Source: an uncultured Actinomycetes bacterium (GTDB taxonomy: Bacteria > Actinomycetota > Acidimicrobiia > Acidimicrobiales > Acidimicrobilacustridaceae). From it: a stretch of 64,000 bases of DNA. The notes under the pieces are model-generated. The model was given only the letters and a program-made list of their open reading frames with translations. It made no database searches and was not told the DNA's origin. The translations under genes and the position numbers were made by a program. The stretch lies in contig CALBSE010000011.1 in assembly GCA_937927725.1 (NCBI GenBank), positions 16,836-80,835 of the forward strand, in the 5' to 3' direction. This document shows positions 42,156 through 60,623 of the stretch, one piece after another (position 1 is the stretch's first letter; every line of letters begins with the position of its first letter).

Positions 42156-43007
42156 ATGGAGTGGGTGGAAATCACTGGCCGCACCGTTGAAGAAGCGAAA
42201 GACGCGGCACTTGATCAACTGGGCGTCGACACTGTCGATGCTGAATTTGAAATCCTCGAAGAACCCTCTCGAGGTCTCTTTGGGAAAATGAAGGGCCAAG
42301 CTCGAGTTCGCGCTCGTATTGCTCCGACCAGTCCCCGACCGAAGGTCGAACGACGCGATCGTCGGAAGAAGGGCAGTGGCAACGGTGGCGGACGCAAGCA
42401 GTCGCAGCGTCCCGCAACCCCAGCCACTGATGCAGCACCGGCAGCACCAGCATCCAATGGCAAACGCCCTGACCGCCACCGTGGTGGTCAGAAGGCTGCG
42501 CCCACCGAGAAGGAAAACACCACCGTGACTGACACTGTTGACGTCGATCTGGCCGAGCACACCCGCATCGTCACCGAGTTCCTTGATGGTCTCGTCGATG
42601 CCTTTGATCTGGAAGGCCGCGTCGAAGCGGTGTCGATTGATGACGAGACCAGCGAAGTTCGCGTCGAAGGTCGTGATCTCGGAATCCTGGTCGGACCGAA
42701 GGGAAACACCCTTGCGGCGATCCAGGAACTTTCCCGCACGGTGATCCACCGCAAGGTGTCTGGCACTGCTGCTGGCCGAGTTCGCCTCGACGTGGCGGGC
42801 TACCGCCAGCGCCGCCGTGAGGCCCTCGAGCGCTTCACTCAGGGCGTGGCCGAGGAAGTTCGTTCCTCTGGCATCCAGAAGGCTCTCGAGCCCATGGGAT
42901 CAGCCGACCGCAAAGTCGTGCACGATACCGTTAATGCGCTCGATGGCGTGTCGACCATTTCTGAAGGCGATGAGCCCCGTCGCCGTGTGGTGATCATTCC
43001 TTCCTGA
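42156..43007 (+). CDS. jag: Jag/KhpB (EloR) RNA-binding protein
   Basis: GRTVEEA, KH motif GILVGPKG and R3H motif RKVVH...SEG.EP.R. Confidence 0.93.
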   Translation: MEWVEITGRTVEEAKDAALDQLGVDTVDAEFEILEEPSRGLFGKMKGQARVRARIAPTSPRPKVERRDRRKKGSGNGGGRKQSQRPATPATDAAPAAPASNGKRPDRHRGGQKAAPTEKENTTVTDTVDVDLAEHTRIVTEFLDGLVDAFDLEGRVEAVSIDDETSEVRVEGRDLGILVGPKGNTLAAIQELSRTVIHRKVSGTAAGRVRLDVAGYRQRRREALERFTQGVAEEVRSSGIQKALEPMGSADRKVVHDTVNALDGVSTISEGDEPRRRVVIIPS

Positions 43008-56940: not shown

Positions 56941-59121
56941 ATGTCCCCCTCCACCCGCGGCCCAGCCGCTTCCGGACGTCGTTCGACGCGTGTTGCCCGC
57001 AAGGTCGGGCCTGACGGAACGCGCCGAAGCATCTTCTGGCGCTGGCGCCGGGCGTTTTTCGCAATCGGCCTCGTCGGGATCCTCCTCATCGCCGGCGCGG
57101 GATATCTGTTCACCCAGGTTCCGCTGCCCGACAAGGATCCGCCGCTTCTGCAAACAACGTTCATGTGTTCGTCAGAGGTTTCCTCGGGTTGCACGGCGGA
57201 CAACTCGATTGCTCAGTTATCGGGTGGAGTGAATCGAATTTCTGTGGACTGGAATCAGATCCCACAGGTCGTGATCGACGCGGTGCTTTCCGCTGAGGAC
57301 CGCACGTACTTCGAACATGGTGGCGTCGACCCCACCGGCATCGTTCGCGCGTTATGGACGAACCTTCGGAACGGCGGTGTCTCCCAAGGTGGGTCGACGA
57401 TTACGCAGCAATATGTCAAAAACGTGTATCTCACACAAGAACGAACAATTACGCGAAAAATCAAAGAAGCGGCGCTCGCGGTCAAGGTTGAACGCGAGTT
57501 GTCGAAACAAGAAATCCTGACCCGCTATCTCAATACGATTTATTTCGGTCGCGGGGCCTATGGCATTGAAGCGGCGTCACGTGCGTACTTCGGCAAAAAC
57601 CTTGATCAAATAACGTTGCCCGAGGCCGCGTATCTCGCAGGCCTTATTCGTTCGCCAGAAACCGCCGACGCGAAACTGCCCGAGAACGTTCCGAATGCTG
57701 CGCGCAGTCACCAAACGGCGATTGACCGCCGAACCTCGGTGCTCGACGCAATGGTTGTGACGGGAAAGATCACAGAAGCCGAAGCTGCCGCAGCCAAAGC
57801 GAATGACTGGAGCGACGTTCTGGTTCGCAGCAACCAGAACAACTACGGGAACGTCGCCCATAGCGAATGGGGCACGGAGTACTTCGTTGACTACGTGCGT
57901 CACTGGTTGACAACCGATGGTGGATTCACTGATGCACAGGTCTATGGCGGTGGTCTGCGTGTCTACACCACGCTCAACATGACCGATCAAGGCGCGGCTG
58001 CCGACGCCATTACGTCAACACTTAACCAACCGAATGATCCCGCGGCGGCATTGGTTTCTATCGATGACGTTGGCGCAGTGCGAGCCATGATCGGTGGTCT
58101 TGATTACAACGGGACCGGCAAGTACTCGAAGGTGAATCTTGCGGTTGGTGCCGATGGCGGTGGCGCTGGTCGTCAAGCAGGATCCTCGTTCAAAGCATTC
58201 ACGCTGGCCGAAGCAATGAATCAAAACATTCCGATGTCGAAGAGTTACGACGCTCCCTCTCGTATTTCGATTCCGAAAGCTGACGGCGGACGTGACTGGA
58301 GTGTCGGGAATTATGCCGACGCCGGTCTCGGTCAACTTGATCTGATCGCAGCAACGATGCATTCGTCGAACACCGCGTATGCCCAGTTGATGATGGATGT
58401 TGGTCCGCAGAATGTCGCCGACCTCGCGAAGCAGATGGGCGTTACAAGCCCATTGAAGGCAGTGCCCGCGCTGACACTCGGAACGAGTGAAGTATCGGTA
58501 CTTGATATGGCCTCTGGCTATTCGACATTGGCTGACAACGGCGAACACATTGCACCGTCGACTGTCACCAAAGTGACCGACGCCAAGGGCAACGTGCTCT
58601 ACGAGAACAAGGTCCTCCGCAAGCGGGTGCTTGATGCGAAGTCGGTCGCCAAGGTGAACTACATCCTCAACCAGGTCGTCGAGGGTGGCACGGCAACCGG
58701 CGCAAAGTTCGGTCAACCTTCGGCAGGGAAGACCGGCACGACCGAGAACTATCGCGATGCGTGGTTCGTTGGTTTCACGTGCAAACTCACTACCGCAGTT
58801 TGGGTTGGCTATCCCGATGGCACCTTCATGAAGTCGGTGCATGGCATGTCAGTCACCGGTGGGTCGTTCCCCGCAACGATCTGGCGCAAGTACATGACGG
58901 TGGCGACAAAGGGCCTGTCATCCTGTCCGTTCCCCTACCCAACCGATGACGGCACGAATATGGGATCGACCTCATCGACGAGTGCCACCAGCACCTCAAC
59001 CTCCTCCACTTCCTCGACGGTGAAACCCTCCAGTACGTCGTCGTCGAGCACGTCCTCGACAAGTTCGACGACGTCCACATCGTCGACAACCACGACGACG
59101 ACAACGAGGCCAACGAACTAA
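56941..59121 (+). CDS. Class A penicillin-binding protein (PonA-like)
   Basis: AEDRTYF.H.G, GGSTITQQ, SSFK, SSN and KTG; Ser/Thr-rich tail. Confidence 0.95.
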   Translation: MSPSTRGPAASGRRSTRVARKVGPDGTRRSIFWRWRRAFFAIGLVGILLIAGAGYLFTQVPLPDKDPPLLQTTFMCSSEVSSGCTADNSIAQLSGGVNRISVDWNQIPQVVIDAVLSAEDRTYFEHGGVDPTGIVRALWTNLRNGGVSQGGSTITQQYVKNVYLTQERTITRKIKEAALAVKVERELSKQEILTRYLNTIYFGRGAYGIEAASRAYFGKNLDQITLPEAAYLAGLIRSPETADAKLPENVPNAARSHQTAIDRRTSVLDAMVVTGKITEAEAAAAKANDWSDVLVRSNQNNYGNVAHSEWGTEYFVDYVRHWLTTDGGFTDAQVYGGGLRVYTTLNMTDQGAAADAITSTLNQPNDPAAALVSIDDVGAVRAMIGGLDYNGTGKYSKVNLAVGADGGGAGRQAGSSFKAFTLAEAMNQNIPMSKSYDAPSRISIPKADGGRDWSVGNYADAGLGQLDLIAATMHSSNTAYAQLMMDVGPQNVADLAKQMGVTSPLKAVPALTLGTSEVSVLDMASGYSTLADNGEHIAPSTVTKVTDAKGNVLYENKVLRKRVLDAKSVAKVNYILNQVVEGGTATGAKFGQPSAGKTGTTENYRDAWFVGFTCKLTTAVWVGYPDGTFMKSVHGMSVTGGSFPATIWRKYMTVATKGLSSCPFPYPTDDGTNMGSTSSTSATSTSTSSTSSTVKPSSTSSSSTSSTSSTTSTSSTTTTTTTRPTN

Positions 59122-59170
59122 TTCGCCCCATCTTTGTGGTGGGGGTCGAGGCCCGATAGCGTCGTAAACA

Positions 59171-59200
59171 TCCGCCGGTAGCCGAGGGGCACTGGACGGG
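59171..59200 (+). ncRNA. Leader hairpin with two bulged A residues (pan-motif-like candidate)
   Basis: TCCG-CCGGT-A-GCC-gagg-GGC-ACTGG-A-CGGG directly before the SD AGGAGG of panB. Confidence 0.45.
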
Positions 59201-59213
59201 CAGGAGGCTCCAA

Positions 59214-60077
59214 ATGAGCGCGCGAATCACCGTTCCATCGGTTCAGGGCCGCAAGGTCCGACGTGGTGACGTCCCTTTGGTGATGGTCACTGCGTACGAC
59301 GCGCCTGGTGCGCGCATGGCCGATGCTGCCGGTATCGACATGATCCTCGTTGGTGATTCCGTTGCGATGGTCGTCCTTGGATACGAAGACACCTTGCAGG
59401 TCACAGTTGCTGACATGGCGCATCACACCGCTGCTGTTGCACGCGCAACGCCGGCTTCGCTCATCGTCGCCGATATGCCGTGGATGAGTTACCACGTGTC
59501 AGTCGCCGACACTGTGACAAACGCTGCCTCCCTTATTCGTGCTGGCGCGCAGGCCGTAAAGCTTGAAGGTGGACGCAAGCGTCTCCCCATGATCGAGGCA
59601 CTTGTCGATGCCGAGATTCCGGTGATGGGCCACATTGGTCTGACCCCGCAATCGGTCAATGCCATGGGTGGTTTTAAGGTGCAGGGCCGAAAGCACGAAG
59701 CGGCCCTCGGACTCGTTGATGATGCAAAAGCCCTTGCTCATGCTGGCTGTTTCGCCATCGTCGTCGAAGGTGTTCCTGACGAGGTTGGTCGCATGATCAC
59801 CGAAGCGATCGACATCCCTACGGTTGGTATCGGCGCTGGCGCCGGCTGCGACGGACAGGTCCTCGTCTTTCACGATGTGCTCGGAATTGAAGAGCGCGTG
59901 CTCCCCAAATTCGTTCGTCGCTATGCCGACTTGGGTACCGAAGGTGTTCGCGCTCTGGGCGCGTACGCCGACGACGTTCGTACTGGTCGTTTCCCATCGG
60001 TGGCCGAGAGTTATTCGCTCGAAGCGCGAACCGCAGAGTCACTCGGCTTGTACGGCACGCCCATTTCTCCGGTCTGA
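59214..60077 (+). CDS. panB: 3-methyl-2-oxobutanoate hydroxymethyltransferase
   Basis: TAYD, LVGDS, VKLEGG, GHIGLTPQS and GQVLVFHD. Confidence 0.97.
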   Translation: MSARITVPSVQGRKVRRGDVPLVMVTAYDAPGARMADAAGIDMILVGDSVAMVVLGYEDTLQVTVADMAHHTAAVARATPASLIVADMPWMSYHVSVADTVTNAASLIRAGAQAVKLEGGRKRLPMIEALVDAEIPVMGHIGLTPQSVNAMGGFKVQGRKHEAALGLVDDAKALAHAGCFAIVVEGVPDEVGRMITEAIDIPTVGIGAGAGCDGQVLVFHDVLGIEERVLPKFVRRYADLGTEGVRALGAYADDVRTGRFPSVAESYSLEARTAESLGLYGTPISPV

Positions 60078-60080
60078 CCG

Positions 60081-60623
60081 ATGAAGCGGCGCGCGGTTGT
60101 CACCGTCGTCGCCCTTGTCGCGACCGCAGCTCTGCTTAATAGTTGTGGATCGGGAGTCTCCTCAACATCGCAATCGCAGCAACACTCGACCTCGGCTGCT
60201 GAGGCCTCGTTGCGGGCGCAGGGCTTTACCAAAGTGACACTTCGCCTTCGTCATGCTGACGGAACCGTCGACGAGCACTGCGTGTGGTTGGCCGACACCG
60301 AAGTGGAACGCAATCGAGGTCTGATGGAGGTCACCGATCCGTCCCTCGGCGGTGGCGAGGCCATGGTCTTCGCGTTCGACGCCGACACCTCGGCGGCCTT
60401 CTGGATGAAGGACACCTTGTTGCCGCTTTCTATCGCCTGGGTCGACTCGAGCGGAGCGGTTGTGAACTCGGCGAACATGGATCCCTGCCCGGCCACCACC
60501 AAGAACTGCCCGCAATTTCCTCCGGGTAGCCCCTACCGATTGGCCATCGAAATGGCCCAAGGTCGGCTCCAGGACTGGGGAATCGGGTCTGATGTGACCA
60601 TCACGCTGGCCGAGGCCTGCTGA
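60081..60623 (+). CDS. DUF192-like lipoprotein
   Basis: Lipobox LLNSC; GLM...M.F.F...FWMKDT.LPLSIAW. Confidence 0.88.
   Translation: MKRRAVVTVVALVATAALLNSCGSGVSSTSQSQQHSTSAAEASLRAQGFTKVTLRLRHADGTVDEHCVWLADTEVERNRGLMEVTDPSLGGGEAMVFAFDADTSAAFWMKDTLLPLSIAWVDSSGAVVNSANMDPCPATTKNCPQFPPGSPYRLAIEMAQGRLQDWGIGSDVTITLAEAC

What the first reader, a model, noticed from the sequence alone, without database searches (positions are those of the whole stretch)
59151..59207. Double-bulged-A hairpin before panB: a possible pan RNA motif in a new phylum
Seen: a 12-bp stem 59171-59200 with single bulged A at 59180 and 59196 on opposite strands and a GAGG loop, ending 1 nt before the SD; GCCCG (59151-59155) offers an alternative pairing with CGGGC (59197-59201). 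Established (recalled): the pan motif is a bulged-A stem-loop upstream of pantothenate genes, reported outside Actinobacteria, with unknown ligand. Inference: feedback control of CoA precursor synthesis, perhaps by PanB binding.
Basis: partly seen in the sequence, partly recalled or inferred. Interest (0 to 1): 0.55.

Follow-up and report, generated by a model that had tools for sequence, protein, structure and literature searches.

The report
Single-hairpin pan-type RNA before panB
A 28-base RNA hairpin with two bulged adenines at the start of the vitamin-B5 gene panB is a real control element conserved across Acidimicrobiia. It is an uncatalogued single-hairpin relative of the still-unexplained "pan" RNA motif.

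Summary
The hairpin is real: 59172-59199, 11 conserved pairs, bulged A59180 and A59196, and an AGGAGG ribosome-binding site starting 3 nt after the conserved stem.

**Conservation.** It is conserved with compensatory changes in front of panB across the class Acidimicrobiia. It was present in 30 of 30 relatives' leaders and in about 50 of 109 class leaders examined.

**Match to pan.** Its geometry is 3 bp / 3'-bulged A / 5 bp / 5'-bulged A / 3 bp, followed by a purine tail. The flanking bases match hairpin 2 of the published pan motif. A joint alignment with genuine pan RNAs keeps 95% of pairs, has 8 of 11 covarying pairs, and both adenines are invariant.

**Rfam.** The tandem-hairpin Rfam model RF01749 gives no hit here, even at E <= 10. 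I therefore call this a new variant, not a catalogued member.

**Position.** A conserved -10-like hexamer 7-10 nt upstream puts the hairpin at the 5' end of a roughly 45-nt leader. This is predicted, not measured.

**Mechanism.** The likely mechanism is inferred: an unknown factor binds the hairpin and blocks ribosome loading.

The proposed alternative pairing is not conserved. PanB as the binder is untested.

**Earlier scan notes.** The scan has reported pan-like leaders in other genomes, but none in Acidimicrobiia.

**Also seen.** A second, differently sequenced hairpin of near-identical geometry fronts panB in other Acidimicrobiia families.

The parts
59133..59138 (+). -35-like hexamer (weak), 18 nt upstream of the -10-like hexamer
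   Evidence: Read. The block around it is conserved within the genus. The sigma-70 consensus scan found nothing. This is an inference only.
59157..59162 (+). -10-like hexamer TAGCGT (actinobacterial TANNNT type)
   Evidence: In 75 of 120 distinct leader sequences, a TANNNT hexamer ends 7-10 nt before the first base of the hairpin. There are almost none at other distances. The transcription start site is inferred near 59168-59170 and has not been measured.
59172..59199 (+). pan-type hairpin. Basal helix 59172-74/59197-99; 3'-bulged A59196; middle helix 59175-79/59191-95 with a G59177-U59193 wobble; 5'-bulged A59180; top helix 59181-83/59188-90; loop 59184-87.
   Evidence: Folding. Conservation and covariation in Acidimicrobiia. 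My covariance model R2 scores it 61.6 bits, against 11.5 for the next best site in the window. Same geometry as genuine pan RNAs.
59202..59207 (+). Shine-Dalgarno AGGAGG, 6 nt before the start codon. It corresponds to the purine-rich tail that follows pan hairpin 2.
   Evidence: A purine tail follows the hairpin in all aligned leaders, and the same tail is present in the pan seed alignment.
59214..60077 (+). panB (ketopantoate hydroxymethyltransferase)
   Evidence: Pfam PF02548, E 2.9e-106.
60081..60623 (+). DUF192 gene, probably co-transcribed with panB
   Evidence: Pfam PF02643. It follows panB on the same strand in 67 of 69 Acidimicrobiia loci where it was found.

Best explanation
The element is a cis-acting RNA operator at the 5' end of the panB(-DUF192) mRNA. 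It is a single copy of the pan-motif hairpin: 3 bp, a 3'-bulged A, 5 bp, a 5'-bulged A, 3 bp and a loop. The ribosome-binding site follows directly.

Shown: the structure, its conservation and covariation across Acidimicrobiia, its exclusive link to panB, and its equivalence in geometry and flanking bases to hairpin 2 of catalogued pan RNAs.

Inferred: transcription starts 1-4 nt before the hairpin. An unknown trans-acting factor recognises the two bulged adenines and the invariant pairs next to them. That factor could be a protein, as Weinberg et al. proposed, or a metabolite not yet tested. When bound, it would hinder 30S loading on the adjacent Shine-Dalgarno site and so lower PanB synthesis when pantothenate/CoA supply is sufficient. 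In Firmicutes the same hairpin is wired to a terminator instead.
For: **Anatomy and stability.**

**panB identity.**

**Presence in relatives.** All 30 relatives' panB leaders carry the hairpin (PanB 67-98% identical).

**Covariation within the class.** 97-99% of cells are paired. The pair under the 5' A occurs as C-G (21), U-A (15) and G-C (10). The wobble is G-U in 43 sequences and G-C in 3. Because of that wobble the fold exists only on the + strand, which means it is RNA.

**Specificity.** There is one hit per genome, and 29 of 31 hits lie next to panB. Nineteen more of 40 unselected panB leaders also carry it.

**Distribution by pattern.** A pattern scan of all GTDB species gave 40 panB-linked matches, nearly all from records titled Acidimicrobiia or vaguer actinobacterial names (two look mislabelled).

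**Match to the published motif.** The pan seed alignment and its consensus structure give the same geometry and the same basal bases (CCG... / ...GACGG) plus the purine tail.

**Geometry test on genuine pan RNAs.** My scanner, built from this hairpin, finds both hairpins of the genuine Rfam pan hits at 9-11 of 11 pairs; it missed hairpin 2 in one locus and hairpin 1 in another.

**Joint alignment with genuine pan.** 95.1% of cells are paired and 8 of 11 pairs show compensatory change. Both adenines and the pairs G3-C30 and C4-G28 are invariant in 48 sequences.

**Cross-detection.** My Acidimicrobiia model's two best hits in 62 kb of genuine pan loci both fall on pan hairpin 2.

**Promoter position.** The -10-like hexamer sits at a fixed distance upstream.
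Against: - Rfam RF01749 gives no hit on the window at gathering score or at E <= 10. It gives none at panB in 21 relatives and none over threshold in 151 genomes of the phylum.
- Cross-detection by my own model is weak: 18.7 and 12.8 bits.
- Seven of the 11 pairs never vary within the class. The strongest covariation therefore comes from joining two groups whose homology is the very point at issue.
- The coordinates for the joint alignment were chosen by a scanner that maximises pairing.
- There is no transcription-start, expression or binding data. The factor is unknown.
- Pantothenate, CoA and beta-alanine were the compounds tested on a Geobacter pan RNA, with no binding reported (Weinberg 2010 supplement).
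Confidence: 0.72

Rival explanations
1. It is a minimal metabolite-sensing riboswitch. A small molecule of the pantoate/CoA branch docks between the two bulged adenines and stabilises the hairpin next to the ribosome-binding site. No protein is involved.
For: Sequence conservation inside the helices is extreme, which is typical of ligand pockets. No regulator gene is linked to the element. Only three compounds have been tested on any pan RNA.
Against: A 28-nt hairpin is very small for a selective aptamer. The frequent tandem arrangement elsewhere suggested a dimeric protein to the discoverers. The hairpin does not sequester the Shine-Dalgarno site, so ligand-stabilised folding alone would not obviously change translation.
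Confidence: 0.2
2. It is a constitutive 5'-terminal stem-loop that protects the panB mRNA from 5'-end-dependent decay or tunes translation. No specific partner exists, and the resemblance to pan is convergent.
For: The predicted position is within a few nt of the 5' end. The Rfam model gives no hit.
Against: A stabiliser needs only a stem. Here both bulged adenines and the neighbouring pairs are invariant over families with about 60% PanB identity. The same geometry recurs before pantothenate genes in other phyla. It also recurs in a second sequence type within the class.
Confidence: 0.06
3. It is a DNA operator: an imperfect palindrome bound by a transcription factor at the panB promoter.
For: It lies immediately downstream of the predicted -10 hexamer, where repressors often bind.
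Against: The two half-sites are interrupted asymmetrically by the bulges. The conserved G-U pair would be an A-C mismatch on the other strand. Changes keep RNA pairing rather than half-site identity. The loop length varies from 4 to 23 nt.
Confidence: 0.02

Closest known systems
pan RNA motif (Rfam RF01749; Weinberg et al. 2010, Genome Biol 11:R31, PMC2864571)
   Same: A stem interrupted by two invariant bulged adenines on opposite strands, 5 bp apart, with a 3-bp base and a top helix of at least 3 bp. The basal bases are the same and a purine-rich tail follows. It lies in the leader of pantothenate-synthesis genes. Single-hairpin forms are already described in delta-proteobacteria.
   Different: - It is not detected by the Rfam model at any threshold.
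- It is always single and predicted to start the mRNA.
- The tail is itself the Shine-Dalgarno site 5-9 nt from the start codon, whereas in the Clostridia-type Bacillota loci fetched (L196-L215) it often pairs with a downstream pyrimidine stretch.
- The wobble in the middle helix is reversed (G-U rather than U-G).
- The pair under the 5' A is free to vary.
- The taxon is Acidimicrobiia (Actinomycetota), which is not among the three phyla originally listed.
Tentative pan-like hit in Mycobacterium avium (Moebius et al. 2015, PMC4607514)
   Same: A claim of a pan-like element in Actinobacteria.
   Different: That paper gives only an automated Rfam-type hit and says it would be the first in Actinobacteria 'if truly pan-like'. 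I did not examine that sequence. My models found nothing next to panB outside Acidimicrobiia in a 151-genome phylum sample.
Translational operator hairpins with a bulged adenine bound by phage coat-protein dimers (MS2, PP7). Recalled from general knowledge, not tested here.
   Same: It would work the same way: a small hairpin with a bulged A next to a ribosome-binding site, where protein binding represses translation.
   Different: There is no sequence or evolutionary relation. Here there are two bulges, the gene is cellular, and the binder is unknown.
Type II Acidimicrobiia panB hairpin
   Same: Same class, same gene, near-identical geometry (bulged A / 5 bp / bulged A, but a 2-bp base and a 2-3-bp top helix), and directly followed by the Shine-Dalgarno site.
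   Different: The helix sequences are entirely different: a C-rich 5' arm and a G-rich 3' arm. The pair next to the 3' bulge is C-G instead of the invariant G-C. The base has only 2 bp. It is preceded 50-60 nt upstream by another conserved hairpin. Neither R2 nor Rfam detects it.

Membership tests
pan RNA motif (RF01749) | [quoted passage not shown] | tested here: met
   Consensus structure of the published seed compared with the window. A9 and A29 are invariant in 48 joint sequences. The scanner finds the same geometry in genuine pan hits.
pan RNA motif (RF01749) | Located in the 5' leader of pantothenate-synthesis genes (panB, panC, panD) | tested here: met
   It ends 14 nt before the panB ATG. 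29 of 31 class hits and 40 pattern hits are panB-linked.
pan RNA motif (RF01749) | Conserved bases around the 3' bulge and base of hairpin 2, plus a purine-rich tail | tested here: met
   G3-C30 and C4-G28 are invariant across Acidimicrobiia and genuine pan RNAs. The tail is present in both.
pan RNA motif (RF01749) | Tandem pair of hairpins (most members; single in delta-proteobacteria) | tested here: not met
   The -10-like hexamer lies 7-10 nt upstream, leaving no room for a first hairpin. The discoverers say this feature is not obligatory.
pan RNA motif (RF01749) | Rfam covariance-model score at or above the 36.2-bit gathering threshold | tested here: not met
   There is no hit on the window at gathering score or at E <= 10. 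None at panB in 21 relatives and none over the cut-off in 151 Actinomycetota genomes. The Bacillus subtilis control was detected.
pan RNA motif (RF01749) | Reciprocal detection: a model built from the new group finds genuine members | tested here: inconclusive
   The two best R2 hits in 62 kb of genuine pan loci fall on hairpin 2, but at only 18.7 and 12.8 bits. The other 18 loci were not hit.
pan RNA motif (RF01749) | Same binding partner or regulatory response | not testable with these tools
   The partner is unknown for the whole family. Only pantothenate, CoA and beta-alanine have been tested.

The most novel reading that the evidence does not exclude
The functional unit of the orphan pan motif may be just this roughly 28-nt hairpin, recognised through the two bulged adenines 5 bp apart and the C-G pair beside the 3' bulge. 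Within a single class, two sequence-unrelated versions with near-identical geometry (type I here, type II in sister families) both abut the ribosome-binding site of panB. That would point to a universally conserved trans-factor that reads shape more than sequence. It would also give a minimal bait and a natural mutational series for finally identifying that factor.
Probability: 0.3. Interest if true: 0.6.

Novelty: new variant of a known kind. Interest (0 to 1): 0.42.

Why it matters
The pan motif has been an orphan regulatory RNA since 2010. This result extends it to Acidimicrobiia, an abundant and mostly uncultured actinobacterial class, in its simplest form: one hairpin, at the mRNA 5' end, touching the ribosome-binding site. 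It shows that the Rfam model misses whole lineages. Together with the type II sibling, it also narrows down which features are conserved across phyla: both adenines, their 5-bp spacing and one adjacent C-G pair. That is useful for designing baits and mutants to find the unknown partner, and for annotating pantothenate regulation in metagenome-assembled genomes.

Tried and rejected
- **Rfam scans.** The whole window at gathering score and 59050-59300 at E <= 10 gave no pan hit. RF01749 on 21 relatives gave only two noise hits elsewhere.
- **Promoter and terminator scan.** The sigma-70 and terminator consensus scan found nothing. That consensus suits Actinobacteria poorly, so I measured TANNNT positions instead.
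- **Whole-leader fold.** The 104-nt leader as a whole is not unusually stable (z = -0.33). Only the hairpin is.
- **Extra copies.** None in the own genome by pattern or model. panC-panD on contig C34 carry none.
- **Outside the class.** Weak R2 hits were all unrelated to panB. One of those genomes, G231, is flagged unpublished.
- **Pattern scan.** Its 80 matches not linked to panB are long-gap or coding chance matches.
- **Other-phylum handles.** Five tried genomes had no pan RNA, before a phylum-wide draw supplied 20 genuine ones.
- **Literature.** Nothing on pan RNA function has appeared since 2010 in the library searched.
- **Earlier scan notes.** No look-alike of this sequence, and no Acidimicrobiia pan note.

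Full report
**1. The observation**

The 92-nt gap between a class A penicillin-binding-protein gene (56941-59121) and panB (59214-60077; Pfam PF02548, E 2.9e-106) contains the hairpin exactly as described.

- Eleven pairs run from 59172 to 59199.
- A59180 is bulged on the 5' arm and A59196 on the 3' arm.
- The loop is 4 nt.
- AGGAGG lies at 59202-59207, 6 nt before the ATG.

RNAfold gives this fold at -17.7 kcal/mol, z = -2.96, with 0 of 200 shuffles as stable. The whole leader is not otherwise unusual (z = -0.33). A scanner for this precise geometry with all 11 pairs finds two sites in 128 kb of window. The second is a chance match inside a coding frame at 42250-42277.

**2. Conservation**

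PanB was found in 40 of 41 relatives. All 30 fetched leaders carry the hairpin, with a variable loop and a Shine-Dalgarno tail. These span the window's genus and seven further families of the order, at 67-98% PanB identity.

- On 24 distinct sequences, 99.2% of cells pair.
- A covariance model (R1) run on 151 genomes of the class gave one hit per genome in 31 genomes. Of these, 29 lie directly upstream of panB.
- On 46 distinct sequences, the pair under the 5' bulge occurs as C-G (21), U-A (15) and G-C (10).
- The basal pair also flips.
- The wobble is G-U in 43 sequences and G-C in 3.
- Both adenines never change.
- The conserved G-U makes the fold strand-specific, so the element is RNA rather than a DNA palindrome.

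Among 40 panB leaders chosen only by gene position, a second model (R2, filters off) found 19 more, plus 2 weak variants.

It gave 40 panB-linked matches, nearly all from records titled Acidimicrobiia, Acidimicrobiales, Acidimicrobiaceae, Microthrixaceae or vaguer actinobacterial names; two records look mislabelled (section 8). The window therefore comes from an Acidimicrobiales bacterium, phylum Actinomycetota.

In a 151-genome sample of the phylum, nothing outside the class lay next to panB. One of those genomes, G231, is unpublished. It counts only as a negative.

**3. Position in the transcript**

In 75 of 120 distinct leader sequences, a TANNNT hexamer ends 7-10 nt before the first base of the hairpin. 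There are almost none at other distances. In the window this hexamer is TAGCGT at 59157-59162.

From general knowledge of actinobacterial promoters, the last T of the hexamer sits near position -7. That places the start at about 59168-59170. The leader would then be roughly 45 nt long and consist of the hairpin plus the ribosome-binding site. This is inferred, not measured.

**4. Comparison with the pan motif**

Weinberg et al. [quoted passage not shown] They are mostly tandem, single in delta-proteobacteria, and lie upstream of panB, panC or aspartate decarboxylase in three phyla.

Their seed alignment and consensus structure give the following for the gene-proximal hairpin: 3 bp, a 3'-bulged A, 5 bp, a 5'-bulged A, a top helix, then a purine tail. 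Many rows share the same basal bases as the window.

I fetched 20 genuine Rfam hits from Clostridia-type Bacillota.

- The scanner built from the window's hairpin finds both hairpins of these RNAs at 9-11 of 11 pairs; it missed hairpin 2 in L213 and hairpin 1 in L201.
- The closest genuine hairpin (L215) matches the window at 9 of 12 positions in each arm. All three differences in the 5' arm are compensated in the 3' arm.
- Some Acidimicrobiia variants have the classical middle helix outright.

A joint alignment was built from 27 Acidimicrobiia hairpins, 19 genuine pan hairpins and 3 sub-threshold ones. It keeps 95.1% of cells paired and has 8 of 11 pairs with compensatory change. Both adenines and the pairs G3-C30 and C4-G28 are invariant. 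The caveat is that the coordinates came from a pair-maximising scanner.

Against membership:

- RF01749 gives nothing at panB here or in 21 relatives, even at E <= 10.
- It gives nothing above its cut-off in 151 Actinomycetota genomes, although B. subtilis is detected as a control.
- My model's cross-detection is weak: 18.7 and 12.8 bits. Those are nevertheless the two top hits, and both fall on hairpin 2.

I therefore file it as a new variant of the pan motif. It works like pan and is very probably related to it, but it falls outside the catalogued model.

**5. How new the taxon is**

A 2015 M. avium genome paper mentions a possible pan-like hit, 'the first in Actinobacteria if true'. RF01749 also gives three sub-threshold hits (28-34 bits) in small, low-GC Actinomycetota genomes. 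Each is a classical single hairpin followed by a terminator, upstream of panB or of an operon containing it.

The phylum is therefore not strictly new. I found no earlier mention of the Acidimicrobiia form, either in the paper library or in this scan's notes. Those notes do hold some 36 pan-type findings in other genomes.

**6. Mechanism**

Shown:

- The element is a strand-specific RNA hairpin.
- It is exclusive to panB. panC-panD of this genome lie on another contig without it.
- It touches the Shine-Dalgarno site.

Inferred: a trans-factor binds the bulged-A hairpin and sterically blocks 30S loading, giving feedback control of the first committed step of pantoate synthesis.

In several of the Clostridia-type Bacillota loci the same hairpin's tail is followed downstream by a complementary pyrimidine stretch, and in the low-GC Actinomycetota loci by a terminator-like hairpin. 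That suggests transcription attenuation. The sensor appears shared while the expression platform differs.

The factor is unknown. Weinberg et al. favoured a dimeric protein. Pantothenate, CoA and beta-alanine were tested at 1 mM on a Geobacter RNA. DUF192 follows panB in 67 of 69 loci but is absent from classical pan operons, so it is an unlikely universal partner.

**7. A second hairpin type in the class**

Of 109 class leaders examined, about 50 carry this hairpin (type I). Another 25-26 carry a different hairpin (type II) with near-identical geometry and unrelated helix sequence.

- Type II is directly followed by the Shine-Dalgarno site and preceded by another conserved hairpin.
- It shows compensatory changes at four informative pairs (a fifth, the terminal pair, is mostly unpaired).
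- It includes low-GC miniature versions in roughly 1-Mb genomes.
- It matches no Rfam family.

The remaining leaders examined (roughly 30) carry neither hairpin; several of them (L269, L271, L273, L274, L277, L281) look leaderless or short. The recurrence of the geometry with different sequence is the most interesting by-product. It argues that shape is what is read.

**8. Verdict**

The element is a new variant of a known but unexplained motif. Interest is moderate.

Noticed in passing
L243:73-100:-, L244:360-387:+, L255:113-139:- and 21 more (alignment A6); upstream hairpin in alignment A5: A second, uncatalogued panB leader ('type II') occurs in other Acidimicrobiia families. It is a C-rich/G-rich hairpin with near-identical double-bulged-A geometry (2-bp base), directly followed by the Shine-Dalgarno site and preceded 50-60 nt upstream by another conserved hairpin. 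Compensatory changes occur at four informative pairs (plus the mostly unpaired terminal pair). There is no Rfam match at E <= 1.
   Followed up: partly
window 60081-60623 (+): A DUF192 (PF02643) gene follows panB on the same strand in 67 of 69 Acidimicrobiia loci where it was found. This is a conserved panB-DUF192 pair of unknown meaning.
   Followed up: partly
L216:149-180:+, L217:1505-1532:-, L218:1548-1578:+: Three small, low-GC Actinomycetota genomes outside the class carry classical single pan hairpins plus a terminator upstream of panB or its operon. They score 28-34 bits, below Rfam's 36.2-bit cut-off.
   Followed up: partly
L198, L201, L202, L208, L210 (just downstream of the Rfam pan hit): In Clostridia-type pan RNAs, the purine tail after hairpin 2 is followed 15-30 nt later by a complementary pyrimidine stretch. 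This suggests a stem that competes with the base of hairpin 2, acting as an expression platform.
   Followed up: no
L269, L271, L273, L274, L277, L281: In several Acidimicrobiia genomes (families not assigned here) the panB start codon lies only about 7-10 nt after a TANNNT hexamer. That suggests leaderless or near-leaderless panB mRNAs with no hairpin.
   Followed up: no
window 42250-42277 (-): This is the only other site in the window with the full pan geometry at 11 of 11 pairs. It lies inside a long coding frame (42156-43007 +) and looks like chance.
   Followed up: yes
window 59207-59219 (+): A small 4-bp helix (GCUC with GAGC) encloses the panB start codon in the predicted fold. It recurs in many close relatives but not in distant ones, so it may just reflect shared ancestry.
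   Followed up: no
L103 and L162: Two public MAG records carry the Acidimicrobiia-type panB leader but are titled 'Acidobacteria bacterium REEB489' and 'Bifidobacterium breve'. L103 is the same contig as a genome of the window's own genus. The labels or binning look wrong.
   Followed up: no
L064:1501-1541:+ and L066:1501-1541:-: A weak R2 hit (31 and 28 bits) in two genomes of one actinobacterial genus is a hairpin plus Shine-Dalgarno site in front of a gene whose N-terminus, read by eye, resembles a microcompartment shell protein (not checked with any tool). It is not panB and is probably chance.
   Followed up: no
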